A stretch of DNA of 64,000 nucleotides from Escherichia phage dune: sequence record MN850636.1. The stretch is one strand, 5' to 3'. Below are positions 7,082-56,011 of this stretch, in pieces. The notes under the pieces are model-generated. The model saw only the letters and a program-made list of their open reading frames with translations. It made no database searches and was not told the origin of the DNA. The first letter of the stretch is position 1; every line of letters starts with the position of its first letter. The translations under genes and the position numbers were made by a program.

Positions 7082-8105
7082 TTGGTGTCCATCCATACTT
7101 ATCAAAAGTGAAATCGTCTTTCTTATTTCTTTCCTGATAAGCTAAGAAAAAGTGTTGCTGCATTAACTCTAAAGGTGTTCTGGTAATTGTTTGACCATCC
7201 CACGAGACATAAGTGTATGACTCTTTCTTAGCATAAAGCTCATAAATTGCATCAAGACACTCTTTGTAAGTGGTTTTACCTTCAAGGGCTTTCATTATAG
7301 TAACCTTACCAACACCCTTTAAACCGAAATAATTATCCGCATTATCACCAGCCACGGCTTGATAGCAAAGAAATTTAAAACCTACCCCAACTGTCTTCTT
7401 AGCTTTGGGTGTCGATTTTATTGGGCAATCCCAAATTTCACCAACGTTGTTATCAGCAATGAAAATCAAAGGTGACTTTTCATAGGTCATATCAATGCAG
7501 TAAGTCCCTTCAGCTTGGCGAAGGTCTTTATCAATACTCATCAAGGCAGCCTTTTTACCCATCTTTTCAGCTTTAGCAATAACGATAGAGTCAGCTTCGA
7601 ATCCATCAAGAATTAGCTTGAACTCTGGCCTTGACAGAAGATACTCGCGACAAGCAACTAAGTGTGTTGGTGTGACAGCATCTTTACGGTTACCTTGATA
7701 TTGGTGCTCAAGACCTTTAATGTCTTTATGTTTATGCACACCTTTCTCTGTTAAATAACCTACCCAAGTTCTTTCTTTACCAACAACCTTAAGCCATTCC
7801 TGAAGCACCTGTTGAGTAGCCATGATAGCTTCTTTTTCACTCTTAGCTTCTTTCCAAGTCTGTCTTTCCCATTCATCTTCATCAAATGTCAGGCCAAGCT
7901 CTTCCACAAGGATTCTCTGGTCTGCTAACCATCTTGCAGCATCTTTCGCATTATCAAACGAATCAGATTCTTCTGCTGTGAGTTTATTGACATATTTATA
8001 TTTTGCTTTCTCAACTACACAAGCACCTTTATAGGCAATACTGTCAGAGTCAATAAAAACATGTGTAACTGAATCGGGAAGTTTTGTTAATGTGTACTTC
8101 TCCAT
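7059..8105 (-). CDS. 5'-3' exonuclease / flap endonuclease (T7 gp6-like, RNase H-like)
   Basis: FEN-family acidic motifs: ILDGFEADSIV, SIDKDLRQ, AGDNADNYFGLKGVGK matching the gp6 pattern from memory. Confidence 0.7.
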   Translation of the reverse strand: MEKYTLTKLPDSVTHVFIDSDSIAYKGACVVEKAKYKYVNKLTAEESDSFDNAKDAARWLADQRILVEELGLTFDEDEWERQTWKEAKSEKEAIMATQQVLQEWLKVVGKERTWVGYLTEKGVHKHKDIKGLEHQYQGNRKDAVTPTHLVACREYLLSRPEFKLILDGFEADSIVIAKAEKMGKKAALMSIDKDLRQAEGTYCIDMTYEKSPLIFIADNNVGEIWDCPIKSTPKAKKTVGVGFKFLCYQAVAGDNADNYFGLKGVGKVTIMKALEGKTTYKECLDAIYELYAKKESYTYVSWDGQTITRTPLELMQQHFFLAYQERNKKDDFTFDKYGWTPNVNPTNS

Positions 8106-8121
8106 TATGGCTCTCCATATG

Positions 8122-8148
8122 AAAAAGCCCCATACTAAGTACAGGGCT
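8122..8148 (-). terminator. Putative rho-independent terminator downstream of SSB gene
   Basis: AGCCC/GGGCT stem with U-run on minus strand. Confidence 0.4.
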
Positions 8149-8167
8149 TTAAAGTAACTTTTAGAGA

Positions 8168-9025
8168 TTAGTCTTCTGTGTCGAAGTCTTCATCTTCTTC
8201 GTCATCTGGGTCTGGCAAATCTTCATCATCACCATCATCAGAAGTATTCGAAGATTTATGGTCTGTTGCGTCTTCTTCAGTGATTTCACCGTTATCTTCA
8301 ACACCATCAAGACCAAGCATAGCCAGTTCATCTTCATCCAGTTCAGGTTCACCATTAGCACCGTTACCACCAGTGTAAGGTACAAGGGTATCAATGATAA
8401 ACTGTTCCTGAATAGGTTTTGTCAGAACATTGTTCTCAAAAGTGTAGAAGTGAGTAGAAAGAATCACACTACCAAAAGAACCGTTACCAACTGCGATATC
8501 TGGATGAATTACATCATAGTTCTTGTCATCTTCATGTTTATCAGATGCTTGAGCTTTGATTTTCTTCATCGGCTGCTTAACAGCTACACGCTTACCATTT
8601 ACTTCTTCAATCAGCATTACAGGGAATGACTGTTTAGCTGTCCATACAGCACCATCTTTATAAGCTGCTGCACGACTTACTTTCAAGATGTAGTAAGTGT
8701 CTGCTTCAAAAGGTGGTTTACAACCAAACTTCTCTTCGAAGTCATCTGCATCAACTGCTTCAGTAGTAACTTTGTCCCAGCCTTCTGGGTTTTTCTTAGA
8801 CTTAGTAAACTCTTTAAACAGCTTGTTACCATCTTCTGCCAGAATTGACACACTGTAGTTACAGTCTTTGCCTGGGAATTTCTTATCAATAGACTTACCT
8901 TTCCCCGGACGTGGTGAAGTATTCAGGTAATAAAACCAGACATCTTTCAGCAGGTAACGCAGAGTTTGACGTTCAGTACCGTTGTATTTCTCTACCGGAG
9001 CTTTCATTTTAACAACTTTAGACAT
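8168..9025 (-). CDS. Putative ssDNA-binding protein with highly acidic C-terminal tail
   Basis: 285 aa; C-terminal 40 aa almost entirely D/E ending DEDFDTED; position between exonuclease and primase-helicase as in T7-like replication modules. Confidence 0.45.
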   Translation of the reverse strand: MSKVVKMKAPVEKYNGTERQTLRYLLKDVWFYYLNTSPRPGKGKSIDKKFPGKDCNYSVSILAEDGNKLFKEFTKSKKNPEGWDKVTTEAVDADDFEEKFGCKPPFEADTYYILKVSRAAAYKDGAVWTAKQSFPVMLIEEVNGKRVAVKQPMKKIKAQASDKHEDDKNYDVIHPDIAVGNGSFGSVILSTHFYTFENNVLTKPIQEQFIIDTLVPYTGGNGANGEPELDEDELAMLGLDGVEDNGEITEEDATDHKSSNTSDDGDDEDLPDPDDEEDEDFDTED

Positions 9026-9098
9026 TATTTAAACCTCTATCTCAATTTATGAAGAGTACCAATTCTAATTTGTTGATACTCTATTGTCAAATACTAAT

Positions 9099-9247
9099 TA
9101 CTGGAAGTTGTGCTTATCTTTAGAAGCTGCTTTACGTGCAGTTTTTCCAGTTCTTACACGTTTCTCTTCATAGTATTTTGCTGGTTTTCCAGCAGTGGCT
9201 TTTAAGGAATCCCCAAAAACTTTTTCAAATGCTTTAGAGTGTTTCAT
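9099..9247 (-). CDS. Small basic protein (49 aa), not in ORF track
   Basis: Hand translation MKHSKAFEKVFGDSLKATAGKPAKYYEEKRVRTGKTARKAASKDKHNFQ; GGAG RBS 6 nt upstream; ATGA stop-start overlap with upstream ORF. Confidence 0.5.
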
Positions 9248-21259: not shown

Positions 21260-21336
21260 ACAGGGTCTTTTAATGAGGTACGGCGCGGTTAGGTAAGGTC
21301 TGGTAGGGTAGGGTGAGGTTTGGTAAAGTGCGGGTA
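21260..21336 (+). repeat. GT-rich tract (region B, tract 1)
   Basis: ggttaggtaaggtctggtagggtagggtgaggtttggtaaagtgcgggtag. Confidence 0.6.
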
Positions 21337-21338
21337 GT

Positions 21339-21366
21339 TAATCGGAGCTACATTAAAATCCGATTA
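21339..21366 (+). repeat. Hairpin family member: TAATCGGA-gctacattaaaa-TCCGATTA
   Basis: 8-bp stem; loop identical to 19957-19982. Confidence 0.65.
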
Positions 21367-21404
21367 CATCACTTAAGAGTCTTCTAAGAGGGTTTTTAAG
21401 TGAT
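21366..21404. repeat. 10-bp inverted repeat CATCACTTAA(N19)TTAAGTGATG (copy 2)
   Basis: Palindrome seen directly. Confidence 0.6.
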
Positions 21405-21406
21405 GT

Positions 21407-21470
21407 TCGGTAGGGTCTGGTAGGGTAAGGTCTGGTCTGGTAGGGTCTGGTAGGGTGAGGTATGGGTAGT
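21407..21470 (+). repeat. GT-rich tract with tandem GGTCTGGTAGGGT units (region B, tract 2)
   Basis: tagggtctggtagggtaaggtctggtctggtagggtctggtagggtgaggtatgg. Confidence 0.65.
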
Positions 21471-49154: not shown

Positions 49155-49230
49155 TGGAGAATCCGAAGGGACTCGAACCCTTATAAACCTGTTTTGCAGA
49201 CAGGCACATATCCATTTCTGTCACGGATTC
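49155..49230 (-). tRNA. tRNA-Cys (anticodon GCA)
   Basis: Hand-folded cloverleaf: 7-bp acceptor, T-arm aaggg-TTCGAGT-ccctt, anticodon loop cuGCAaa, CCA encoded. Confidence 0.75.
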
Positions 49231-49234
49231 AAAT

Positions 49235-49327
49235 TGGAGGAAGATACCAGACTTGAACTGGTACACCGATTTCTCAGCTACTGGCAGTTTAGCAAACTGC
49301 TCCCTTACCTTTTAGGGTTAATCTTCC
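49235..49327 (-). tRNA. tRNA-Ser (anticodon GCT), long variable arm
   Basis: 93 nt, 7-bp acceptor, anticodon loop uuGCUaa. Confidence 0.7.
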
Positions 49328-49328
49328 A

Positions 49329-50063
49329 TTATTTCTGTAATGCGCTCTTCATTTCTGGTGTTGCAATAGTGTCAATCACACCAGTTTTACAAGCATCGTC
49401 AAACCAGTCTGGTAAGATACCTGCTAAGAACCCATTGATATTCGTTTTAAGGTACTCTGCAATAAGGGCAGCTTCTTCTTCAATCATCTGCACAACTTCA
49501 TCTGCATAAGCTGTAATCTTTGAAATACCTTCATTAATCTTACTGACAGCTTGGTTAGCTAAATCAGAAACAGTATCAAGACCCTTATCAATAGCATCTT
49601 GTAAGTCACTTAACACACCATTAACACTATCTAGTGTACTGTTCATCATGTCAATAGCTTTTTGACCATACTCTGTAGCAACACCCATGATACCACTGAA
49701 TGGTGTACAACCAACTTGTTCTCCTGCTGCACCCATAACATTGGAATACCCCTTTGCTACCTGCATACGTGATGAAAACTCATCAATAGATTTTTGACCG
49801 TAGTCTGTCAGAGTTTTAGTAGTTGCTGTAGTGCTTGTAAGGCTTGTTGTAAAGCTGTTTAGAAGGACTGTTGTAAGTCCAGCAGCAACAAGTTTCTCCT
49901 TCATTGTAGGGTCTGTTACAGAACTAATAGAGCTTACAAGTGATGTAGAAGCAGCTACGGTTCCACCGAGAACTGCTGCACCAGTAATAAGCGGGTTAGA
50001 GAACCCTTTACCAGTTTTTAAGAGATTAAAAATCTCCTTACCTTGTTCTGTCATCTCTTTCAT
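49329..50063 (-). CDS. Hypothetical protein (~244 aa) embedded in tRNA array
   Basis: ORF track; ATG 50063 after AAAGGTG RBS avoids overlap with tRNA-Phe. Confidence 0.5.
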   Translation of the reverse strand: MKEMTEQGKEIFNLLKTGKGFSNPLITGAAVLGGTVAASTSLVSSISSVTDPTMKEKLVAAGLTTVLLNSFTTSLTSTTATTKTLTDYGQKSIDEFSSRMQVAKGYSNVMGAAGEQVGCTPFSGIMGVATEYGQKAIDMMNSTLDSVNGVLSDLQDAIDKGLDTVSDLANQAVSKINEGISKITAYADEVVQMIEEEAALIAEYLKTNINGFLAGILPDWFDDACKTGVIDTIATPEMKSALQK

Positions 50064-50079
50064 TAAGCACCTTTGAAAT

Positions 50080-50156
50080 TGGTAGCCCAGTGGGATTTGA
50101 ACCCTCTTCTCATGTTTTTCAGACACGCGCTTTAACCATATAAGCTACTTGGACTA
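50080..50156 (-). tRNA. tRNA-Phe (anticodon GAA)
   Basis: Anticodon loop cuGAAaa; acceptor with one G-U. Confidence 0.6.
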
Positions 50157-50161
50157 TAAAT

Positions 50162-50237
50162 TGGGGTGACCTACGGGAGTCGAACCCGTATAGACCATGT
50201 TCACAGCATGGGTCATTACCATTTATGATAAGGCCAC
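50162..50237 (-). tRNA. tRNA-His (anticodon GTG)
   Basis: Anticodon loop cuGUGaa; perfect anticodon stem. Confidence 0.7.
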
Positions 50238-50267
50238 ATTTAAGGACTCTCGTAAGAACCCTTAGAA

Positions 50268-50344
50268 GTGGCAGCGGCATAAGGATTTGAACCTTAATCG
50301 GACAGCTTCAGAGACTGTTGCATTGCCAGTTATGCTATACCGCT
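50268..50344 (-). tRNA. tRNA-Gln (anticodon CTG)
   Basis: Anticodon loop cuCUGaa. Confidence 0.65.
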
Positions 50345-50349
50345 AAATT

Positions 50350-50429
50350 TGGTACTCCATATCGGATTCGAACCGATACATAACACAGATTTTAAGTCTG
50401 GCCTCTCTGCCAATTGGAGTAATGGAGCA
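50350..50429 (-). tRNA. tRNA with Leu anticodon TAA, short (~7 nt) variable loop
   Basis: Acceptor and T-arm good; anticodon loop cuUAAaa with 4-bp stem; 80 nt. Confidence 0.5.
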
Positions 50430-50430
50430 T

Positions 50431-50506
50431 TGGCGGGGGATGTTGGAATTGAACCAACTTCTTCGATTTCAAAGACCGAGGTTTTAACCTTGTAAACTAA
50501 TCCCCT
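50431..50506 (-). tRNA. tRNA-Gln (anticodon TTG)
   Basis: Anticodon loop cuUUGaa; D-stem guuu/aaac. Confidence 0.7.
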
Positions 50507-50514
50507 TTAAATCT

Positions 50515-51072
50515 TTACTTTCTCAGTGGATGAATAAAGAATGCCAACATAACTCTTTCCCTTGAGAATGCTCTTTCTTCTGGGACAACACTTTTAAGTT
50601 TCCATCCAACATAAATTCTCCAGTAAAACTGTTTACCAAAGACTTTAATTGACGGAATAAAAGCGAATAATCCCCAAGCATTGTTGTTCCACATTAGGAG
50701 ATAACCTGTCTGATTATCTTCAGGGTCAGAACTTACGTTGATATTACCTTTCCACTTAGTAACATCTTTTACATCTCTTCCTAATACATGGTAAGAGAAG
50801 TTATAAGCTTTGTTTCTCCAGAGCCATCCGACTCTCTGCATGTAGACACCCAGCTTACCAATCTTTCTAATCTTAGCCCATCTTTTAACGTGGCCTTCAT
50901 CACCATCAATTGGGTTGTCATAGGTCTCCATCCATCTGAATCCAAAAGGTAGATGTCCTTTCTTCTCACTGTAGAATGGAACTACGAAAGGTGCTAAGAT
51001 GACTGCTAGGGTTGCTGCAAATGGTTCTAGTAAAGCTAAGAAAATCCATGAAGCGTACTTCAAATATCTCAT
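50515..51072 (-). CDS. Hypothetical membrane protein (185 aa) embedded in tRNA array
   Basis: ORF track; N-terminal hydrophobic helix; flanked by tRNAs. Confidence 0.5.
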   Translation of the reverse strand: MRYLKYASWIFLALLEPFAATLAVILAPFVVPFYSEKKGHLPFGFRWMETYDNPIDGDEGHVKRWAKIRKIGKLGVYMQRVGWLWRNKAYNFSYHVLGRDVKDVTKWKGNINVSSDPEDNQTGYLLMWNNNAWGLFAFIPSIKVFGKQFYWRIYVGWKLKSVVPEERAFSRERVMLAFFIHPLRK

Positions 51073-51081
51073 TAAATAGCC

Positions 51082-51159
51082 TCTTTAAATTGGTGTTCCA
51101 AGACGGATTCGAACCGTCACTAATACAAGGTTTGAGCTTGCATCCTCTGCCAATTGGGA
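51082..51159 (-). tRNA. tRNA with Leu anticodon CAA, short variable loop
   Basis: Perfect acceptor, T-arm gacgg-TTCGAAT-ccgtc, anticodon loop cuCAAac, A73; 78 nt. Confidence 0.55.
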
Positions 51160-51161
51160 TA

Positions 51162-51235
51162 CTGGAACATGGTACTCACTAAAGGACTTGAACCTTTTTC
51201 TTCATCTTGTAAGGGTGGTGTTTTACCATATAAAC
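51162..51235 (-). tRNA. tRNA, probably Val (anticodon TAC); weak anticodon stem
   Basis: Acceptor, D- and T-arms fold; loop cuUACaa. Confidence 0.45.
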
Positions 51236-51244
51236 TAAGCGAGT

Positions 51245-51300
51245 GTGAAAGAGGTCTGAAGTTGTGCCGCTAACTCAACTCCGTGGAATTTGTTACGGTC
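51245..51300 (-). repeat. Member of GGTCTTC-motif structured repeat family (CTGAAG...CTTCAG stem)
   Basis: Shares ACGGTCTTCAG 3' motif with 53148-53812 copies. Confidence 0.4.
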
Positions 51301-51339
51301 TTCAGTTGACACCAGCGGTCTTTCACTTGACCTCTGAAT

Positions 51340-51415
51340 TGGTGCTCCCACAAGGATTCGAACCCTGATAAGTTGCTTACAAGGCAACCGTAATAGCCAA
51401 TTATACGATAGGAGC
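51340..51415 (-). tRNA. tRNA-Thr (anticodon TGT)
   Basis: Anticodon loop cuUGUaa, perfect anticodon stem. Confidence 0.7.
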
Positions 51416-51422
51416 ATTAATT

Positions 51423-51497
51423 TGGAGCATCCAGAGGGAATCGAACCCTCAACCTCAGTTTGGAAGACTGTAATTTTCCCGTTTAAACTATGGATGC
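51423..51497 (-). tRNA. tRNA-Gly (anticodon TCC)
   Basis: Anticodon loop cuUCCaa; perfect acceptor and T-arm. Confidence 0.7.
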
Positions 51498-51503
51498 ACT
51501 AAT

Positions 51504-51578
51504 TGGTGGAGTCACTGAGAATTGAACTCAGTTCCCAAGTTTGCAAAACTCGAATTTTAACCATATAAACTATGACCC
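51504..51578 (-). tRNA. tRNA-Ala (anticodon TGC)
   Basis: Anticodon loop uuUGCaa; G3:U70 pair in acceptor stem (alanine identity element). Confidence 0.8.
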
Positions 51579-51584
51579 CATTTT

Positions 51585-51660
51585 TGGTACAGGTGGAGGG
51601 AATTGAACCCATCGTCTTACTGATTAAGAGTCAGCCGCATAACCATTTTGCTACACCTGC
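51585..51660 (-). tRNA. tRNA-Lys (anticodon CTT)
   Basis: Anticodon loop cuCUUaa; paralog of 52809-52884. Confidence 0.6.
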
Positions 51661-51667
51661 ATTAATT

Positions 51668-51745
51668 TGGTAGGAGACAAGGGATTCGAACCCTCAAACA
51701 CCAACTTCTAAGGATGGTAGGTTTACCAATTACCGTCAATCTCCC
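51668..51745 (-). tRNA. tRNA with Leu anticodon TAG, short variable loop
   Basis: Anticodon loop cuUAGaa; acceptor 7 bp incl. 2 G-U; A73. Confidence 0.5.
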
Positions 51746-52001
51746 ATTAAATCTTTTTAGAGAACTTCTAAGAACCTGAGCAACAAGGTTCCACAACAAG
51801 CGACTAATAACCTTAGAAGCCCTCTAAAAAGACCTAAATAGGTCTTTGCATAGTCTTGTTTAATCCGGTGACTAGAACCTTTGGAGAGCTTGATATTATC
51901 TCTTCTCCGTGACACCTACTAGGTGCTTTGACAGTGTACGACAATACACGAGGGATAAACCGACAATGCGAACAAGCATGGACGGAGTAAATCTTATTAG
52001 G

Positions 52002-52089
52002 CGGTAAGTAAAGGAGTCGAACCCTCACCGTATCTCTACAGTGGCAACAGTTTTCAAGACTGTTTGGCTGCCATTAGCCGCTACCTACC
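52002..52089 (-). tRNA. tRNA-Ser (anticodon TGA), long variable arm
   Basis: 88 nt; perfect anticodon stem acagu/acugu, loop cuUGAaa. Confidence 0.7.
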
Positions 52090-52102
52090 CCTAATAAGAC
52101 TT

Positions 52103-52185
52103 TGGCATGGGACGGAGGAGTTGAACCCCTTTGAAACGGTTTTGGAGGCCGTTGCTCATGCCTTAGAGTCTTAACATCGTCCCAT
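52103..52185 (-). tRNA. tRNA-like, possibly Trp (anticodon CCA), enlarged D region
   Basis: Perfect 7-bp acceptor, T-arm, loop cuCCAaa; atypical 83 nt. Confidence 0.45.
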
Positions 52186-52327
52186 ATTATAATTCGAAGC
52201 TTACCCTGTTATCTCAACACTGTCAAGCTTCTTCTCAGATTATTTACATGTTCTGGAAAACATGAGATACAGACCACCTCCCTACAGGAAGACCCGCTAA
52301 GGCCGTCTAAGTAATCTGCTAACTATT

Positions 52328-52403
52328 TGGTACACCCTACAGGATTCGAACCTGTAACTAACGATTTAGAAGACCGTTGCTCTATCCAATTGAACTAAGG
52401 GTG
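52328..52403 (-). tRNA. tRNA-Arg (anticodon TCT)
   Basis: Anticodon loop cuUCUaa; perfect T-arm. Confidence 0.7.
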
Positions 52404-52650
52404 CATTATCTTTAAAGACTCTCTTAGAAAGCCCTTAAAGATGCCCACCTTATTAATCATACCGTGGGCGAGTACGCCAAATTCTTTGATGAGGGATTGG
52501 AAGACCTCACTGGTGTTTAGCCTATCAAGCTACTGCCAGAAAAACATTGTCGTTTGCATTTATTTTAAATTTGCAAAATAGACGCTACGCAACGAAAACT
52601 AAGGTTACTATAAAGTAGTCACATCTCAATGTCAACAACTTTATTGAAAT

Positions 52651-52726
52651 TGGTACTGGTAGGTGGAATCGAACCACCGATGTTCCCTTATCAGGGGAGT
52701 GTTATAACCTTCTTAACTATACCAGC
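52651..52726 (-). tRNA. tRNA-Ile (anticodon GAT)
   Basis: Anticodon loop cuGAUaa. Confidence 0.65.
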
Positions 52727-52727
52727 T

Positions 52728-52804
52728 TGGAGGTTCAGATGGGAATCGAACCCACATTCATAGGGCTTATGAGACCCTTGCATTACCTTATCTGCGACTG
52801 AACC
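52728..52804 (-). tRNA. tRNA-Met (anticodon CAT)
   Basis: Anticodon loop cuCAUaa; perfect acceptor. Confidence 0.65.
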
Positions 52805-52808
52805 ATAT

Positions 52809-52884
52809 TGGTAGAAGTGGAGGGATTCGAACCCATCGCCTGTCAGATTAAAAGTCTGCCGCATCACCATTCTGCTACACTTCC
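52809..52884 (-). tRNA. tRNA-Lys (anticodon TTT)
   Basis: Anticodon loop cuUUUaa. Confidence 0.6.
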
Positions 52885-52892
52885 ATTAAATT

Positions 52893-53020
52893 ATCTTTGT
52901 AGATAAGCTACCCAGACTTGCTTAAGGTCTGTAGCGATGTGCCTTTTTTGGGTTTAAATCTAGAATTTACCCATTCACCCTTTGTGGTCGCATACTCACA
53001 AGTAAGCTTAATAACTTATC
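52893..53020. repeat. Structured tRNA-free element bounded by perfect 13-bp inverted repeat CTTTGTAGATAAG / CTTATCTACAAAG
   Basis: Inverted repeat at 52895-52907 and 53006-53018 enclosing CAGAC/GTCTG hairpin. Confidence 0.5.
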
Positions 53021-53085
53021 TACAAAGGTAATTACCAGACCGTTGTTTATCATCTTAAGTGCTACCATTACACCAACTCGACATC

Positions 53086-53160
53086 TGCCGAGTGAAGGAA
53101 TCGAACCTTCGCCTTTTCTTTACCAGAGAAATAGATTGTTTAAGTTTTGCTGTAAACGGC
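53086..53160 (-). pseudogene. Degenerate tRNA-like gene (Thr-like, anticodon GGT) with weak acceptor stem
   Basis: Perfect T-arm (gaagg-TTCGATT-ccttc) and anticodon arm (uuucu-cuGGUaa-agaaa) but only 5/7 acceptor pairs and poor D-arm. Confidence 0.4.
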
Positions 53161-53169
53161 CTTCTGTAA

Positions 53170-53250
53170 ATTTGTTGAGCCAGACCAAGTTTTAAATTTT
53201 CAAAATTAAATTGGCTTGAAAATATCATACGTTCTTGCTGAATTTGGTCT
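53170..53250 (-). ncRNA. Structured repeat element copy 1 (AGACCAA...TTGGTCT stem; conserved TTGCTGAAtttGGTCTTCTG)
   Basis: 7-bp terminal stem; shared 30-nt motif with copies at 53584 and 53738. Confidence 0.45.
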
Positions 53251-53321
53251 TCTGCTCCTTTAAAGAATACTCGTAAGAACTCTTTAAGGGAGGGGCTAAA
53301 TAGCCCTCTCAAAATTGGCGG

Positions 53322-53398
53322 CTACGATGAGACTTGAACTCACATCATCTCCCGTGACAGGGGAGTATTTTCTCCAGTTAAACTACATAGCCTTTATT
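53322..53398 (-). tRNA. tRNA-Asp (anticodon GTC)
   Basis: Perfect anticodon stem cuccc/gggag, loop cuGUCac. Confidence 0.7.
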
Positions 53399-53403
53399 GG
53401 TGT

Positions 53404-53491
53404 GCCGTGTAGGAGTCGAACCTACCGAGTCTCAATGACAAGGGATTTACAGTCCCCACCGCTACCATCTACGGGATAACGACACATTTAA
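53404..53491 (-). tRNA. tRNA-Tyr (anticodon GTA), long variable arm
   Basis: 88 nt; loop cuGUAaa; perfect T-arm. Confidence 0.65.
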
Positions 53492-53499
53492 TTTGGCGG

Positions 53500-53576
53500 T
53501 TAGTCAGGGATTCGAACCCTGTGCCATTCGCTTAACAGGCGACCGCACATACCTTATGTGCTTCCTAACCTTAATA
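53500..53576 (-). tRNA. tRNA-Asn (anticodon GTT)
   Basis: Anticodon loop cuGUUaa; perfect T-arm caggg/ccctg. Confidence 0.65.
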
Positions 53577-53583
53577 CATTGCC

Positions 53584-53646
53584 AGACCGTGTTTTTTCTT
53601 TTATCCGCAAAAAAGTATTTTGTTGCTGAATACGGTCTTCTGCAAA
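53584..53646 (-). ncRNA. Structured repeat element copy 2 (AGACCGT...ACGGTCT stem)
   Basis: Stem carries compensatory AA/TT -> GT/AC change relative to copies 1 and 3. Confidence 0.45.
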
Positions 53647-53648
53647 AT

Positions 53649-53725
53649 TGGAGGCGGGTGCAGGAGTCGAACCTGCCGATACCATGCTAATGAGACATGT
53701 GAGACGCCCTTTCTCTATACCCGCA
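53649..53725 (-). tRNA. tRNA with anticodon CAT (second Met-type; initiator or Ile2 possible)
   Basis: Loop cuCAUua; U1:C72 mismatch at top of acceptor stem. Confidence 0.55.
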
Positions 53726-53737
53726 ATTCTTAATGAC

Positions 53738-53812
53738 CAGACCAAATCTCTTCTTTGTCCGATTTACCTTCAGATGAATAAGATTAAGTTTGCTGTAATT
53801 GGTCTTCTGTCA
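53738..53812 (-). ncRNA. Structured repeat element copy 3 (AGACCAA...TTGGTCT stem)
   Basis: 7-bp terminal stem, conserved TTGCTGTAATTGGTCTTCTG. Confidence 0.45.
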
Positions 53813-53819
53813 AAACTGG

Positions 53820-53897
53820 CGTTCCAGAAGGGATTTGAACCCTCAGATATCCACTTTGAAAGAGTGGTGACTATACCATTTTGTCTACTGGAACATT
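53820..53897 (-). tRNA. tRNA-Glu (anticodon TTC)
   Basis: Perfect acceptor and anticodon stem ccacu/agugg, loop cuUUCaa. Confidence 0.7.
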
Positions 53898-53904
53898 AAT
53901 TTGG

Positions 53905-53981
53905 TCTCTGTTGGAGGACTTGAACCTCCGGCCTTACCGCCCCAAACGGAACGCTCTACCAAGCTGAGCTAAACAGAGATA
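53905..53981 (-). tRNA. tRNA-Pro (anticodon TGG)
   Basis: Perfect acceptor, canonical D-arm GCUCAGCUUGGUAGAGC, loop uuUGGgg. Confidence 0.75.
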
Positions 53982-54142
53982 AACTTTTCAAACTCTATGT
54001 AACCACTTTAACATTATTTTTTAGTGGTTGTCAAGAACTTTTTTAAAATATTTTTCAGTATCTTAGAAAAGCTCTCATTTCGTTTCTATGTAGAACATAT
54101 TAAAGGGTATTAAACACATTGTCAATACCCTTTTAAAACTTT

Positions 54143-55558
54143 TTACCAGATGTAACGGTCAATCATTACTGCTTTGAGCATTACACTGATTGGGTCAAAC
54201 TTCTCACCACCAAGCAGAGCTTTTAAAGTAGCTGGAGAGAAACCTGATACCATTGCTACACCGTTATCCTTAACAGATACTTCGCAAGTACCATTACGGT
54301 TTGCTAAGTACCAGAATACCAGTTGTGGCATCTTATATCCAGCTTTTTTGTACTTACTACGAATTTCTTCAAAGTTTGTACGACCGTTAGCTCCATCAAC
54401 CTGATTGAACTCCATATCGGAGAAGATGATAAGCTTACTTGGCATATCTTTCTGAGTCAAGTTGTTTCTTTTACCTGTTTCAAGAATGCGGTCAAAAGCT
54501 GCTTGTAAGTTAGTTGAGCCATATTCAACGTGTCGCATCACCTGACGATGACGGTTTCGTAAATCACCGCTCAGTTCGATGAAGTGAGGGTTTGTTGAAT
54601 AAACCATTAACTCATTCTTAAAGCAACCTGTATTGCGTTCTGCTACATACAAGGCAAGTGATACACCAATATCCAGAGCAGTAATGGAGCCAAAATTCAC
54701 CCAAGACATTGAACTTGATACATCAGACATACACAAGATGTTTTCACCTTCTGCCATCCAGTTTGGTAGTGCTTTCCACTGCTCATTAGCAACATCTGCA
54801 TTACCATACTTGACAGATTTAATCACATCGTATGGGTAAACAGCACCAGCGTTAATCTTAGTCTCACCTTTTGATAAGGACTCGATGTAAGCTTTGTAAC
54901 GCTCTCCATCTTTACGGTTAAACAGTTTTTGGTAACGTGCAGCAGCAAGTGAAGGAATCTTACTGTAGTCAATCTTACCAAACTCATTAGCAGAGATTTT
55001 TTGCTCAACTGTATCAGATAGTGCAGACAACAGTGTGCGGTACTCTTTCTCACTCAAGTTGGCAAACTTGCAGAAACGTTTTACAAACTGCTTATGACGT
55101 GGTTTGACTCGTGGTAACCACTTAGCCGCCAAACCTGCTGTTGCAGGGTCTAGTAATGCTGCTTCTAAATGTTTGAAGGCATCTGTCTCGAAACGAGTAC
55201 CTACGAAGATTTTGAAGTCATCAAAACGACCAAGTTCTGCAATCTTATCCATAATGCGAAGAACCTGCATAGACTCTAAAACTTTGTCTTCAATCGCTTG
55301 AAGCAAAACAGTTCTGAAGGCTTTACGCTCACCCATACCTTCTCGTACATCTCGCATATGCAGTAAAATACGAACTGCAACATCAACATCCTCACGCAAA
55401 GCTTTGTAGAACAGGTCTGGTAAGATTTCTACATTGCTACGGCTTGAACCAGCAGCTTTGTAAAAGTCCACAAGAGCAGACATTGATGAAGTATGGTTTA
55501 CAGCACCATTTTCAGTTCGACCTGCATGAAGGTGCGCATGTTTAAATAATTCGCTCAT
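54143..55558 (-). CDS. vWA-domain protein with MIDAS motif (alpha-helical N-domain + C-terminal vWA); TROVE/Ro60-like architecture possible
   Basis: 471 aa; DxSxS MIDAS in CMSDVSSSMSW, downstream LIIFSDMEF beta-strand/Asp; heads the tRNA operon on the same strand. Confidence 0.65.
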   Translation of the reverse strand: MSELFKHAHLHAGRTENGAVNHTSSMSALVDFYKAAGSSRSNVEILPDLFYKALREDVDVAVRILLHMRDVREGMGERKAFRTVLLQAIEDKVLESMQVLRIMDKIAELGRFDDFKIFVGTRFETDAFKHLEAALLDPATAGLAAKWLPRVKPRHKQFVKRFCKFANLSEKEYRTLLSALSDTVEQKISANEFGKIDYSKIPSLAAARYQKLFNRKDGERYKAYIESLSKGETKINAGAVYPYDVIKSVKYGNADVANEQWKALPNWMAEGENILCMSDVSSSMSWVNFGSITALDIGVSLALYVAERNTGCFKNELMVYSTNPHFIELSGDLRNRHRQVMRHVEYGSTNLQAAFDRILETGKRNNLTQKDMPSKLIIFSDMEFNQVDGANGRTNFEEIRSKYKKAGYKMPQLVFWYLANRNGTCEVSVKDNGVAMVSGFSPATLKALLGGEKFDPISVMLKAVMIDRYIW

Positions 55559-55639: not shown

Positions 55640-56011
55640 TTATTTTTTGAGAGTCGCTACAGCAGAGAACGTTGGTTTGTTATCTGTCTGTGGCTGACCA
55701 CCATTATCAGGGGTTTTCTTAGTGTCTGCTGCAAGTGCTTTCATCTCACCTGCTGAGTGAGTAAAGATGGTTTTACCGACCTCAATCATACTCTTGATGG
55801 TTACGTCGTCTGTGTTTAACCCGAACTCTGCAAGCTTAGCAGCGTCCCTTGTAACAATCGCCTCAAACAGTTTTGCAGCAAACTCAGCAGAATTATCAAT
55901 GGTCAGTTGAGCTTTTACAAGTGAGCTTTTGTTACGAGAGCCTTTTGGTCTTCCAGATGGGTTTCCAGATTGGCCTTTTTTAAACTGGCCTTTGTTTGTT
56001 CTGTTTTTCAT
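55640..56011 (-). CDS. Hypothetical protein with N-terminal KGQSGNPSGRPKGSRN motif
   Basis: 123 aa; conserved GNPxGRPKG-type basic N-terminus. Confidence 0.5.
   Translation of the reverse strand: MKNRTNKGQFKKGQSGNPSGRPKGSRNKSSLVKAQLTIDNSAEFAAKLFEAIVTRDAAKLAEFGLNTDDVTIKSMIEVGKTIFTHSAGEMKALAADTKKTPDNGGQPQTDNKPTFSAVATLKK

What the first reader, a model, noticed from the sequence alone, without database searches (positions are those of the whole stretch)
53086..53160. Degenerate tRNA-like gene overlapping the repeat motif
A perfect T-arm and a perfect anticodon arm (anticodon GGT) are followed by a poorly paired acceptor and D region, and its 5' portion coincides with the conserved TTGCTGTAAACGGCCTTCTG motif. 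This suggests the repeat elements may derive from duplicated tRNA 5' regions, or that this is a decaying tRNA.
Basis: seen in the sequence. Interest (0 to 1): 0.4.

Follow-up and report, generated by a model that had tools for sequence, protein, structure and literature searches.

The report
Phage Y-RNA with permuted tRNA mimic
What looked like a decaying tRNA gene is the tRNA-shaped core of a conserved small structured RNA of the Y-RNA (YrlA) type, one of four stem-closed RNAs that this Felix-O1-like phage carries in its tRNA operon just downstream of a Ro60-like ring protein. It offers an E. coli phage in which to test what Ro60/Y-RNA particles do.

Summary
The T arm (53094-53110) and the hairpin with loop CUGGUAA (53115-53131, minus strand) are real. 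The "poor acceptor and D region" comes from assuming normal tRNA order. The missing halves lie just 3' of the T arm. ACUCGGC-AGAU-GUCGAGU forms a perfect 7-bp acceptor hairpin (53093-53076), followed by U8 and a canonical D arm (53073-59). The order hairpin, T arm, closed acceptor, D arm is that of YrlA, the tRNA-mimicking bacterial Y RNA.

The acceptor stem covaries across three Ounavirinae genera, while the "anticodon" loop drifts (CUGGUAA, CCGGUAA, CGGUAA, CUAUAAA). The repeat motif is not a tRNA 5' region. It is the 5' strand of a closing helix plus a conserved UUACAGCAA. The same module closes four RNA units in the operon.

About 1 kb upstream on the same strand lies a 471-aa DUF2828/DUF7788 protein. 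Its predicted fold matches only Ro60/TROVE proteins over its full length. Its Bas63 ortholog gp130 is a reported Ro60-like anti-defence protein.

A covariance model built only from RNAs next to DUF2828 genes in unrelated phages finds this element as the top hit in the window (45.6 bits). UUACAGCAA-plus-T-loop loci carry DUF2828 genes 37% versus 3% of the time.

Verdict: a divergent YrlA-like Y RNA. Binding to the protein is inferred, not shown.

The parts
53032..53169 (-). Unit D: the complete stem-closed RNA that contains the tRNA-like domain (the finding).
   Evidence: The MFE and RNAalifold folds give a closing helix around a multi-way junction. 96% of cells pair, against 43-50% in the slid controls. 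Model R1, built from other phages only, matches 53057-53156 at 45.6 bits, E about 2e-6.
53166..53169 (-). Closing helix H1, 5' strand UUAC. It pairs with GUAA at 53035-53032.
   Evidence: Predicted by RNAalifold. H1 differs between units but is always complementary: UGAC/GUCA, UUGC/GCAA, GAGC/GCUC, UUAC/GUAA.
53163..53165 (-). Conserved 3-nt internal loop AGA, opposite the single G at 53036.
   Evidence: Invariant in all four units and in all Ounavirinae relatives examined.
53156..53162 (-). Closing helix H2, 5' strand AGGCCGU. It pairs with ACGGUCU at 53043-53037.
   Evidence: 7/7 pairs. The variants AGACCGU, AGGCCGU and AGACUGU are all wobble-compatible on this strand only. One A-C break occurs, in L067.
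53147..53155 (-). Conserved single-stranded motif UUACAGCAA, directly 3' of the H2 5' strand.
   Evidence: Invariant in alignment A2. It is present after the closing helix in units A-C and in RNAs next to DUF2828 genes in unrelated phages. Loci with this motif plus a T loop are enriched for DUF2828 genes.
53115..53131 (-). Anticodon-arm-like ('V') hairpin UUUCU-CUGGUAA-AGAAA, 4 nt upstream of the T arm.
   Evidence: Read from the sequence. The stem is conserved in most relatives, but the loop varies: CCGGUAA, CGGUAA, CUAUAAA, CUAUGAA. In the Mordin group a different hairpin replaces it. Many distant homologs have a 7-nt CU-NNN-AA loop with a different middle triplet.
53094..53110 (-). T arm GAAGG-UUCGAUU-CCUUC.
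   Evidence: Read from the sequence. Invariant in the relatives of alignment A1, which were collected by BLAST and not by T-arm sequence.
53076..53093 (-). Acceptor-stem hairpin ACUCGGC-AGAU-GUCGAGU: 7 bp closed by a 4-nt loop.
   Evidence: Three of the 7 pairs show changes on both sides across genera, and 99% of cells pair. Loop variants are AGAU, AGGU, AGAG, a UACG-type tetraloop, and GCCAAACA.
53059..53075 (-). U8-G9 followed by the D arm GUGU-AAUGGUA-GCAC (contains A14, G18 and G19).
   Evidence: Read from the sequence. Conserved in all relatives; only loop position 20 varies.
53032..53043 (-). 3' strands of the closing helix: ACGGUCU (H2), G, GUAA (H1).
53177..53257 (-). Unit C: GAGC-AGA-AGACCAA-AUUCAGCAA ... 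UUGGUCU-G-GCUC, enclosing an A/U-rich hairpin. It has no tRNA-like domain.
   Evidence: Fold; 11/11 closing pairs in all relatives.
53579..53645 (-). Unit B: UUGC-AGA-AGACCGU-AUUCAGCAA ... ACGGUCU-G-GCAA, lying between tRNA-Met and tRNA-Asn.
   Evidence: Fold. In relatives H1 changes UUGC/GCAA to UUAC/GUAA, with a G-U intermediate.
53734..53812 (-). Unit A: UGAC-AGA-AGACCAA-UUACAGCAA ... UUGGUCU-G-GUCA, lying between tRNA-Glu and tRNA-Met.
   Evidence: Fold.
54143..55558 (-). Gene for a 471-aa Ro60-like protein (Pfam DUF2828 + DUF7788). It sits immediately upstream of the tRNA operon on the same strand and is the presumed protein partner.
   Evidence: Pfam and PHROG 850 'RNA-binding protein'. 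AlphaFold2 model with pLDDT 89. The top 11 Foldseek PDB hits are all Ro60/TROVE proteins over the full length. The MIDAS residues are invariant. It is the ortholog of Bas63 gp130.

Best explanation
The element is the tRNA-like domain of a phage-encoded Y RNA of the YrlA type. It is a tRNA-derived module whose chain enters and leaves between the D arm and the anticodon-like arm, so it is circularly permuted at about position 26/27. Its acceptor stem is closed by a short loop. A conserved helix with an AGA/G internal loop clamps its two ends, followed by single-stranded UUACAGCAA.

It is one of four RNAs with the same clamp (units A-D), co-transcribed with the phage tRNAs.

Inferred steps:
- Processing of the flanking tRNAs (RNase P and 3' trimming) releases the units.
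- The clamp plus UUACAGCAA binds the phage's own Ro60-like ring protein, encoded about 1 kb upstream.
- The tRNA-shaped domain (elbow, 7-bp acceptor stem, anticodon-like loop) recruits or occupies a tRNA-recognising host factor. It may itself be cut by RNase P, as Mycobacterium smegmatis YrlA is.
- The particle thereby modulates the protein's role in RNA metabolism or counter-defence.

Shown here: the anatomy, its conservation and covariation, homology to RNAs next to orthologous genes in other phages, and the Ro60-like fold of the neighbouring protein.

Not shown: expression, processing, binding and function.
For: - **Anatomy.** A perfect T arm, a 7/7 acceptor hairpin, U8, and a D arm with A14, G18 and G19, in the order hairpin-T-acceptor-D. 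This is the V-T-AS-D order described for YrlA (PMC4201824).
- **Selection for structure.** Across 15 distinct sequences from three genera, 96.2% of cells pair against 43-50% for slid partners. Three acceptor pairs show double compensatory changes (UA/AU/CG, GC/UA, GU/UG/UA). No shuffle reached the observed covariation score, 0/500.
- **Independent prediction of the closing helix.** RNAalifold finds it without guidance. All Ounavirinae units have 11/11 closing pairs, whereas chance copies of the 5' motif elsewhere reach only 7-10/11.
- **Neighbouring gene.** The DUF2828/DUF7788 protein gives a confident model. Its only full-length PDB matches are Ro60 proteins: Thermus phage phiLo, Xenopus, Deinococcus and human, E 4e-8 to 3e-6, TM 0.51-0.63.
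- **Published ortholog.** Bas63 gp130 (bas63_0130, same position) is reported as Ro60-like and as a counter to the Ppl defence. The authors guess that 'some tRNA genes ... are possibly Y RNAs' (10.1101/2024.10.10.617714).
- **Same architecture elsewhere.** It recurs beside DUF2828 orthologs of 42-51% identity: L167, two elements found by the scan plus a third read by eye; L171; L174, two; L017.
- **Control for the descriptor.** The same descriptor also picks up elements beside canonical TROVE Ro60 genes in L116, L081 and L047.
- **Rfam YrlA (RF02553).** It scores the L174 and L167 elements at 41-52 bits, E 1e-5 to 8e-9, as high as or higher than the TROVE-associated phage ones.
- **Independent model.** R1, built from six non-Ounavirinae RNAs only, finds window 53057-53156 as its best hit. 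The score is 45.6 bits, E about 2e-6, full length with UUUACAGCAA aligned. That is 14 bits above the best tRNA-dimer junction.
- **Co-occurrence.** 43 of 115 loci holding UUACAGCAA followed by a T loop carry a DUF2828 homolog, against 3 of 93 control loci. Odds ratio 18, p = 3e-10.
Against: - There are no expression, end-mapping or binding data for any of these RNAs.
- The Rfam YrlA model gives no hit on the window's own element even at E <= 10. The related elements it does hit stay below its gathering score of 69 bits.
- The canonical Ro60-binding motif GNCGAAN0-1G is absent. Here the conserved sequences are CAGAAG... and UUACAGCAA.
- The protein is related to Ro60 by predicted fold only. There is no PDB sequence hit. 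hhalign against one TROVE-type phage Ro60 aligns only the vWA part, at 31% probability.
- Bas63 gp130 alone, expressed from a plasmid or from T7, is sufficient to counter Ppl. That activity therefore does not require these RNAs.
- Only 17 of the 44 permuted elements in the survey had a DUF2828 gene within the few kb of DNA held.
Confidence: 0.7

Rival explanations
1. A tRNA mimic that works independently of the Ro60-like protein. For example, it could act as a decoy or sponge for host tRNA-targeting nucleases, toxins or tRNA-modifying and processing enzymes. Alternatively it could be an extra RNase P 'punctuation' site in the polycistronic tRNA transcript.
For: - It has a 7-bp acceptor stem plus a T arm, the determinants of RNase P recognition cited in PMC4201824.
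- Many distant homologs have anticodon-like 7-nt loops of the form CU-NNN-AA with varied triplets.
- It is embedded in a tRNA operon.
- gp130 works without the RNAs against Ppl.
Against: - This reading does not explain why the same closing module and UUACAGCAA motif also close three units that have no tRNA-like domain.
- It does not explain the 18-fold enrichment of DUF2828 genes beside such RNAs.
- The anticodon-like loop is not conserved within the Ounavirinae: C33 in most members, a 6-nt loop in some, and a different hairpin in the Mordin group.
Confidence: 0.15
2. A circularly permuted or split tRNA-Thr(GGU) gene that yields a decoding tRNA. This would require RNase P cleavage of the acceptor loop, CCA addition, and joining or stable association of the ends.
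For: - All four arms are present with a perfect acceptor stem.
- The Mordin group encodes G-CCA directly after the 3' acceptor strand.
- M. smegmatis YrlA is cleaved by RNase P and receives CCA.
- tRNAscan-SE calls a 129-nt tRNA-Thr-GGT here in the ASO1B GenBank record.
Against: - U33 is replaced by C in most Felixounavirus members, and several have a 6-nt loop.
- ESh22 and L087 have a different triplet, and the Mordin group has no anticodon arm.
- The SUSP2 group closes the acceptor with a stable UACG-type tetraloop, leaving only 2 nt between positions 72 and 1.
- No CCA is encoded in this window.
- No bulge-helix-bulge motif or intron halves flank the element. I know of no bacterial pathway that circularises such precursors (my own knowledge).
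Confidence: 0.05
3. A decaying tRNA pseudogene, or the remnant of a tandem tRNA pair (3' half of one copy plus 5' half of the next).
For: - The sub-threshold tRNA score of 26.8 bits.
- No ARAGORN call.
- Drift in the 'anticodon' loop among relatives.
- Tandem duplication is a plausible evolutionary origin for the permutation.
Against: - Compensatory changes keep the two 'halves' complementary across three genera.
- The T and D arms are invariant while the flanking sequence diverges.
- The same permuted architecture, with unrelated stem sequences, occurs in distant phages and is found by an independent model.
- Junctions between real tRNA neighbours score 14 bits lower, with mismatched acceptor pairs.
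Confidence: 0.03
4. Small protein-coding genes, as annotated in some records. Examples are wV8 gene 48 and Bas63 0137/0138 on the plus strand, and the 85-aa minus-strand ORF at 53055-53312.
For: ORFs of 36-85 aa exist on both strands, and some are annotated as hypothetical proteins.
Against: - Relatives differ by indels of 1, 2 and 4 nt inside these ORFs: a 6-nt versus 7-nt loop, and acceptor loops of 2, 4 or 8 nt.
- Substitutions follow base-pairing rules, not codon positions.
Confidence: 0.02

Closest known systems
YrlA (Rfam RF02553), the tRNA-mimicking Y RNA bound by bacterial Ro60 (Rsr). Known in Salmonella, Mycobacterium smegmatis and 22 phages that have TROVE proteins (Chen et al. 2014, PMC4201824).
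   Same: - The order V, T arm, closed acceptor-like stem, D arm, with both RNA ends forming a long stem.
- tRNA-type conserved nucleotides: U8, A14, G18-G19 and UUCGA in the T loop.
- Encoded within 4 kb of, and on the same strand as, a Ro60-type protein.
- More than one Y-like RNA per locus.
- The Rfam YrlA model recognises sister elements in L174 and L167 at E 1e-5 to 8e-9.
   Different: - The partner protein belongs to Pfam DUF2828/DUF7788, not TROVE/vWA_Ro60.
- There is no GNCGAAN0-1G motif. The conserved features are UUACAGCAA and, in Ounavirinae, an AGA/G internal loop.
- It has a full anticodon-arm-like hairpin and a 7-bp acceptor stem, where the Rfam consensus has a 4-bp through-stem and a 6-bp acceptor-like stem.
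- It is embedded in a tRNA operon.
- The window's own element is not detected by RF02553.
Bas63 (Escherichia phage JohannRWettstein) gp130, reported in the PhageMaP preprint 10.1101/2024.10.10.617714.
   Same: It is the ortholog of the window's 54143-55558 protein and occupies the same position upstream of tRNA-Pro. It is reported to be structurally similar to Ro60, and the authors suggest that Y RNAs hide among the tRNA genes.
   Different: The preprint does not identify any Y RNA. It suspects annotated tRNA genes, whereas the candidates found here lie in 'intergenic' stretches or under small annotated ORFs (bas63_0137/0138). gp130 alone suffices against Ppl.
Thermus phage phiLo Ro60 with Yrl1 and Yrl2 (PMC12135203).
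   Same: A phage-encoded Ro60 with two adjacent Y-like RNAs, each a stem flanking a large internal loop that bears a conserved motif. It is among the best structural matches to the window's protein (9kop, 9l5y).
   Different: The phiLo RNAs carry the CGAA motif, lie upstream of the gene, and are not described as tRNA-like. The protein is a recognisable TROVE homolog.
Circularly permuted tRNA genes of the red alga Cyanidioschyzon merolae, and two-piece (permuted) tmRNA genes of alpha-proteobacteria (my own knowledge).
   Same: In the gene order, the 3' half (T arm plus 3' acceptor strand) precedes the 5' half (5' acceptor strand plus D arm).
   Different: The algal genes are processed through bulge-helix-bulge motifs into canonical decoding tRNAs. 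Permuted tmRNAs carry a tag reading frame and pseudoknots. Here there is no such motif, the 'anticodon' is not conserved, ARAGORN finds no tmRNA, and there is no room for a tag frame.

Membership tests
Canonical tRNA gene | A colinear cloverleaf (5' acceptor, D, anticodon, T, 3' acceptor) that is recognised by tRNA finders. | tested here: not met
   ARAGORN makes no call among its 25 tRNAs. Rfam tRNA gives 26.8 bits, below 29, over model positions 7-64 only. The 5' acceptor strand and D arm lie 3' of the T arm.
Canonical tRNA gene | A conserved 7-nt anticodon loop with U33 and a stable anticodon among orthologs. | tested here: not met
   Observed loops are CUGGUAA, CCGGUAA (the majority), CGGUAA, CUAUAAA and CUAUGAA. 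The Mordin group has a different hairpin.
YrlA / bacterial Y RNA (RF02553) | A tRNA-like domain in the order (V)-T-acceptor-like stem-loop-D, with the RNA's ends forming the stem. | tested here: met
   The architecture is as described in PMC4201824.
YrlA / bacterial Y RNA (RF02553) | Encoded within about 4 kb of a Ro60 ortholog, on the same strand. | tested here: met
   The gene 54143-55558 (minus strand) ends about 1 kb upstream of unit D. Its model matches Ro60 structures over the full length. Caveat: by Pfam it is DUF2828/DUF7788, not TROVE.
YrlA / bacterial Y RNA (RF02553) | The GNCGAAN0-1G motif in the 5' strand of the Ro60-binding stem. | tested here: not met
   The 5' strand reads UUUACAGAAGGCCGUUUACAGCAA, with no GNCGAA. 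The nearest resemblance is CAGAAG.
YrlA / bacterial Y RNA (RF02553) | Scores at or above the Rfam gathering threshold of 69 bits. | tested here: not met
   There is no YrlA match in the window at E <= 10. Sister elements in L174 and L167 score 41-52 bits, and TROVE-associated phage elements score 37-46 bits.
YrlA / bacterial Y RNA (RF02553) | Physically bound by Ro60. | not testable with these tools
   This needs immunoprecipitation or gel-shift experiments.
   Model R1, built without any Ounavirinae sequence, gives 45.6 bits and is the top hit. For the motif and its context.
Two-piece (permuted) tmRNA | A tag reading frame with a resume codon, pseudoknots, and an alanine-type acceptor (G3-U70). 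| tested here: not met
   ARAGORN, which searches for tmRNA, finds none. Only about 15 nt separate the D arm from the closing helix. Pair 3-70 is C-G.
Permuted tRNA gene that matures into a decoding tRNA (C. merolae type) | A bulge-helix-bulge junction, circular intermediates, and a conserved anticodon. | tested here: inconclusive
   The anticodon is not conserved. The junction is an 11-bp helix with an AGA/G loop, not a bulge-helix-bulge. Intermediates cannot be tested here.
Ro60 / TROVE protein family (for the neighbouring gene) | A HEAT-repeat ring plus a vWA domain with a MIDAS site. | tested here: met
   Foldseek gives full-length matches to Ro60 only, at probability 1.00. DxSxS (D279, S281, S283), T349 and D381 are invariant in 43 homologs. 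Sequence-level membership in Pfam TROVE is not met.

The most novel reading that the evidence does not exclude
The RNAs next to DUF2828 genes may be complete, circularly permuted tRNA mimics, opened at position 26/27. In different phages their anticodon-like loops (CU-NNN-AA) display different 'anticodons': GUU, GCU, UAG, GGA, GUA, UAA, GAU, GCA, UCU, CCA, UUU, and GGU here. Held on a phage Ro60-like ring, they would act as decoys, sensors or delivery handles for host enzymes that recognise particular tRNAs. Such enzymes include anticodon nucleases and other tRNA-targeting immunity factors, which would tie the tRNA operon, the Y-like RNAs and the reported anti-defence activity of gp130 into one counter-defence module.
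Probability: 0.15. Interest if true: 0.85.

Novelty: new variant of a known kind. Interest (0 to 1): 0.62.

Why it matters
Ro60/Y-RNA particles occur from bacteria to humans, where Ro60 is a major lupus and Sjogren autoantigen. The purpose of the tRNA-like domain of bacterial Y RNAs is still unknown.

If this reading is right, the Felix-O1 group carries a compact Ro60-like/Y-RNA system. That group includes typing and therapy phages and the genetically tractable Bas63. The system consists of one protein gene and four small RNAs in the tRNA operon, in a host (E. coli K-12) that, to my knowledge, lacks its own Ro60. Binding, processing and phenotype could therefore be tested cleanly.

The result also does four other things:
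- It gives concrete candidates for the Y RNAs that the Bas63 study only suspected.
- It links the widespread, uncharacterised DUF2828/DUF7788 phage family to a recognisable RNA partner with its own signature, UUNCAGCAA.
- It explains a recurrent annotation problem, in which this stretch is variously called tRNA-Thr with a 129-nt span, hypothetical ORFs, or nothing.
- It shows that gaps in phage tRNA clusters can hold non-tRNA structured RNAs.

Tried and rejected
- **Permuted group I intron.** I considered intron halves flanking permuted exons, which would circularise the tRNA. There is no G immediately before the 3' 'exon', and no intron family appears in Rfam at E <= 10. The same flanks also close units that have no tRNA part.
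- **Two-piece tmRNA.** ARAGORN finds none, and there is no room for a tag frame.
- **Repeat motif as a sigma-70 promoter** (TTGACA/TTTACA at its start). No usable -10 hexamer is present, and the scan does not list these sites. The G-U-compatible substitutions argue for RNA pairing.
- **K-turn at the AGA loop.** The opposite strand lacks the G-A pairs a K-turn needs.
- **A 4-bp stem CUUA/UAAG closing the junction** (MFE fold). It is not conserved in SUSP2 or Mordin.
- **Rfam YrlA on the window.** No hit.
- **PDB sequence search with the protein.** Only chance hits to uridine kinase, at E about 1.
- **hhalign of the DUF2828 profile against one TROVE-type phage Ro60.** Weak, and limited to the vWA domain.
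- **Literature searches.** 'Felixounavirus + tRNA-like', 'permuted tRNA + bacteriophage' and 'DUF2828' returned nothing relevant. Two Ro60 reviews were not held in the library.
- **MAFFT alignment A4, which included the closing helix.** It misaligned helices of different length, so model R1 was built on the core only, using A5.
- **DUF2828 contexts without a permuted element.** Vibrio phage phi-pp2 (L169), L173 and L175 showed none with my descriptor.
- **Yersinia phage P778 (L166) and L122.** By my reading of the sequence (only L122 was folded), these instead carry normal-order tRNA-like RNAs with a large insert in place of the anticodon arm.
Full report
**Context.** The window is a Felixounavirus (Felix-O1-like myovirus), 99.9% identical over this region to Escherichia phage fjerdesal. 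A cluster of 25 tRNA genes lies on the minus strand at 49155-53978. The finding sits in the 431-nt gap between tRNA-Asp (ends 53316) and tRNA-Lys (starts 52884).

**Checking the observation.** So is the hairpin UUUCU-CUGGUAA-AGAAA at 53131-53115, with GGU in the anticodon position. The interval overlaps the motif TTGCTGTAAACGGCCTTCTG (53147-53166), which has 3 matches at up to 3 mismatches against 0 expected. ARAGORN does not call a tRNA here. The Rfam tRNA model gives only a local match of 26.8 bits, below its 29-bit threshold.

The 'poorly paired acceptor and D region' is an artefact of assuming the usual order of parts. Immediately 3' of the T arm the sequence reads ACUCGGC-AGAU-GUCGAGU-UG-GUGU-AAUGGUA-GCAC. 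The 3' acceptor strand pairs 7/7 with a 5' acceptor strand across a 4-nt loop. U8 and a textbook D arm with A14, G18 and G19 follow. All four tRNA arms are therefore present and intact, but the gene order is anticodon-like hairpin, T arm, closed acceptor stem, D arm. Most of this lies outside the coordinates given.

**Is it conserved?** The spacer is present in 251 phage records. I aligned it from Felixounavirus, Suspvirus and Mooglevirus, then from 15 distinct versions of the element, including IMG/VR contigs.

- The T and D stems never vary.
- The acceptor hairpin changes by compensation:
  - ACUCGGC/GUCGAGU in Felixounavirus;
  - ACACGUU/GGCGUGU in the SUSP2/Sf19 group, closed by a UACG-type tetraloop;
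  - ACCCUUC/GAAGGGU in the Mordin group, whose loop GCCAAACA encodes G-CCA.
- For the named structure, 96.2% of cells pair against 43-50% when partners are slid. Three acceptor pairs have changes on both sides. No shuffle reaches the covariation score, 0 of 500.
- The 'anticodon' loop is not held: CUGGUAA here, CCGGUAA in most Felixounavirus members (C at position 33), a 6-nt CGGUAA in several, CUAUAAA and CUAUGAA in two Mooglevirus-like contigs. The Mordin group has a different 5-bp hairpin.

This pattern excludes a decoding tRNA under normal constraint. It also excludes a decaying pseudogene. Indels of 1, 2 and 4 nt among relatives rule out the small ORFs that some records annotate across this stretch. 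Two GenBank records label the region tRNA-Thr. In ASO1B the feature is a 129-nt tRNA-Thr-GGT called by tRNAscan-SE.

**What the repeat motif is.** RNAalifold, with no guidance, pairs the two ends of the element. UUAC pairs with GUAA (H1). An internal loop follows, AGA opposite a single G. Then AGGCCGU pairs with ACGGUCU (H2). Directly after the H2 5' strand comes single-stranded UUACAGCAA. The 'repeat' is exactly H1 + AGA + H2 + UUACAGCAA.

The same module closes three more units in the operon:

| Unit | Coordinates | Closing module |
|---|---|---|
| A | 53812-53734 | UGAC-AGA-AGACCAA ... UUGGUCU-G-GUCA |
| B | 53645-53579 | UUGC ... GCAA |
| C | 53257-53177 | GAGC ... GCUC |
| D | 53169-53032 | UUAC ... 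GUAA (contains the finding) |

H1 and the variable end of H2 differ between units but are always complementary. Across relatives every unit keeps 11/11 closing pairs. Substitutions are either compensatory (unit B UUGC/GCAA to UUAC/GUAA, with a G-U intermediate) or wobble-compatible on this strand only. Chance copies of the 5' motif in unrelated contigs find at best 7-10/11. Only unit D holds a tRNA-like insert. The repeats are therefore not tRNA 5' regions.

Units A and B begin 3-4 nt after one tRNA and end 8 nt before the next. Ordinary tRNA processing would therefore release them (inference).

**The architecture has a name.** The order V hairpin, T arm, closed acceptor-like stem, D arm, with the RNA's two ends forming a stem, is that of YrlA. 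YrlA is the tRNA-mimicking Y RNA bound by bacterial Ro60 (Rsr), described by Chen et al. 2014 (PMC4201824). Those authors found YrlA within 4 kb of Ro60 genes on the same strand. They also showed that M. smegmatis YrlA, which has a 7-bp acceptor stem, is cut by RNase P and receives CCA.

**The neighbouring gene.** In Citrobacter phage Mordin the gene directly upstream of the tRNA operon is annotated 'vWA domain and DUF2828'. The window's ortholog (54143-55558, minus strand, 471 aa) matches Pfam DUF2828 + DUF7788 and PHROG 850 'RNA-binding protein'. It has no PDB sequence match.

An AlphaFold2 model from 43 homologs is confident: pLDDT 89, pTM 0.87. Its top 11 Foldseek matches in the PDB are all Ro60/TROVE proteins, aligned over the full length. 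They are Thermus phage phiLo Ro60, Xenopus Ro, Deinococcus Rsr and human Ro60, with E 4e-8 to 3e-6 and TM 0.51-0.63. All lower hits are isolated vWA domains. The MIDAS residues are invariant. At sequence level the link to a TROVE-type phage Ro60 is weak: hhalign gives 31% probability over the vWA domain only.

This Ro60 likeness is already in the literature for the ortholog Bas63 gp130 (bas63_0130). The PhageMaP preprint (10.1101/2024.10.10.617714) reports three things. It is structurally similar to Ro60. It counters the Ppl defence. It does so even when moved alone to a plasmid or to T7. The authors guess that some annotated tRNA genes might be Y RNAs but identify none.

**Does the RNA go with the protein elsewhere?** I looked up divergent DUF2828 homologs (42-53% identity) in their contigs.

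- Permuted tRNA-like elements lie right beside the gene, on the same strand, in four contexts:
  - L167: two found by the scan, and a third, with a 14-nt loop, read by eye.
  - L171: one.
  - L174: two.
  - L017: one.
- Each is preceded by UUNCAGCAA directly after the 5' strand of a closing helix of unrelated sequence.
- L167 also has units without a tRNA-like insert, as the window does.
- As a control on the descriptor, its other hits in randomly collected viral loci lie beside canonical TROVE + vWA_Ro60 genes (L116/L126, L081, L047). These are known-type phage YrlA loci.
- Rfam's YrlA model (RF02553, threshold 69 bits) scores the DUF2828-associated elements of L174 and L167 at 41-52 bits, E 1e-5 to 8e-9. 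That is as high as or higher than the TROVE-associated phage ones at 37-46 bits. It does not detect the window's own element.
- A covariance model built only from six non-Ounavirinae DUF2828-associated RNAs (A5, R1) finds window 53057-53156 as its best hit in all 64 kb. The score is 45.6 bits, E about 2e-6, full length with UUUACAGCAA aligned. That is 14 bits above the best junction between two real tRNAs.
Of the 115 new loci, 43 (37%) contain a DUF2828 homolog within the few kb held. Among control loci chosen by a T arm alone, 3 of 93 (3%) do. Odds ratio 18, p = 3e-10.
- Forty-four of the 124 matches are followed by the acceptor hairpin and D arm.
- Not every DUF2828 context has a permuted element. 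By my reading of the sequence, L122 and L166 carry normal-order tRNA-like RNAs with a (C)AGCAA-bearing insert in place of the anticodon arm (L122 folded). L169, L173 and L175 showed nothing with my descriptor.

**Mechanism.** Shown: a conserved, covarying, permuted tRNA-like RNA module. It is homologous to RNAs that accompany DUF2828 genes, and it lies about 1 kb downstream of a Ro60-fold protein.

Inferred by analogy with Ro60/Y-RNA systems (PMC4201824; PMC12135203, where phage Ro60 and its Yrl RNAs bind host PNPase):
- the clamp helix and UUACAGCAA bind the ring protein;
- the tRNA-shaped domain engages a tRNA-recognising factor or is cut by RNase P;
- the particle tunes the protein's activity.

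Against a strict requirement for the RNAs: gp130 alone counters Ppl.

Many distant homologs keep a 5-bp hairpin with a 7-nt CU-NNN-AA loop 4-5 nt before the T arm, and the middle triplet differs between them. This leaves open a decoy or sensor role aimed at anticodon-recognising enzymes.

**Novelty.** YrlA-type RNAs and phage Ro60 are known, and the Ro60 likeness of the Felixounavirus protein has been noted. In the literature I could search, I found no report of the following:
- the Y-like RNAs themselves;
- their distinct signature (UUNCAGCAA instead of GNCGAA, a complete anticodon-like arm, a 7-bp acceptor stem);
- their tandem placement inside a tRNA operon;
- their association with the large DUF2828/DUF7788 family.

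I rate this a new variant of a known kind.

Noticed in passing
window 52889-53033 (minus strand): 'Unit E' is a 145-nt element closed by a 22-nt-arm inverted repeat (AAUUACCUUUGUAGAUAAG... / ...CUUAUCUACAAAGAUAAUU). It lies directly between unit D and tRNA-Lys. The stem covaries with the SUSP2/Mooglevirus group (UUUGCAGUGAC/GUUACUGCAAA), while the interior is largely replaced apart from AUUCUAGAUU. It lacks the AGA/UUACAGCAA module.
   Followed up: partly
window 53260-53284, 52411-52435 and 50239-50263: A 25-nt direct repeat family (TTTAAGGACTCTCGTAAGAACCCTT-like, family D12) occurs three times in the tRNA cluster. Each copy forms a small hairpin on the minus strand. Its function is unknown.
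   Followed up: no
window 53290-53310 (minus strand): A G+C-rich hairpin, GAGAGGGCUAUUUAGCCCCUC, lies right after tRNA-Asp. It is conserved in all genera aligned and is not followed by a U run.
   Followed up: no
window 55640-56011 (minus strand), and L166 5558-5917: A DUF5681 protein gene sits immediately upstream of the DUF2828 Ro60-like gene both here and in Yersinia phage P778. This may be a conserved gene pair.
   Followed up: partly
window 53398-53485 and 53649-53725: ARAGORN calls tRNA-Tyr and one tRNA-Met here. Neither reaches the Rfam tRNA gathering score in the whole-window scan, which lists 23 matches against ARAGORN's 25.
   Followed up: no
window 21297-21450 (plus strand): Five copies of GGTCTGG fall within about 150 nt, some only 5-15 nt apart. 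This is probably a short coding repeat and is unrelated to the RNA units.
   Followed up: no
L122 69-190 and 196-313; L166 about 9010-9160 and 8145-8215: Next to other DUF2828 genes there are normal-order tRNA-like RNAs. In these the anticodon arm is replaced by a 65-100-nt insert carrying (A/U)CAGCAA, or AGAAGCAA in L166. Yersinia phage P778 also has a stem-closed UUACAGCAA unit. The L122 and L166 8145-8215 elements were folded. The L166 element at about 9010-9160 was read by eye only.
   Followed up: partly
L008/L009/L121 (Mordin group), L081 and L117: Some permuted elements encode NCCA directly after the 3' acceptor strand, inside the hairpin loop (GCCAAACA, GCCAACUU, UCCAACCAU). RNase P cleavage would leave a ready-made CCA end in these, as observed for M. 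smegmatis YrlA.
   Followed up: partly
window 54097-54125 and 54005-54034 (minus strand): Two sigma-70-like promoters (10/12 matches each) and a terminator-like hairpin (54133-54102) lie between the Ro60-like gene and tRNA-Pro. The tRNA and Y-like RNA operon may therefore be transcribed separately from the protein gene.
   Followed up: no
L099 (minus-strand coordinates 7425-7479 and 7568-7623) and L117 6834-6890: Three further strict permuted tRNA-like elements have no Ro60 or DUF2828 gene in the DNA held. In L099 the neighbouring ORF is a DUF7873 protein.
   Followed up: partly
L167 8213-8288: In the multi-locus Rfam scan, the tmRNA model RF00023 gave a sub-threshold match here: 31.6 bits against a gathering score of 47, listed E-value 5.2e-9. 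It lies just after the first tRNA, downstream of the DUF2828 gene.
   Followed up: no
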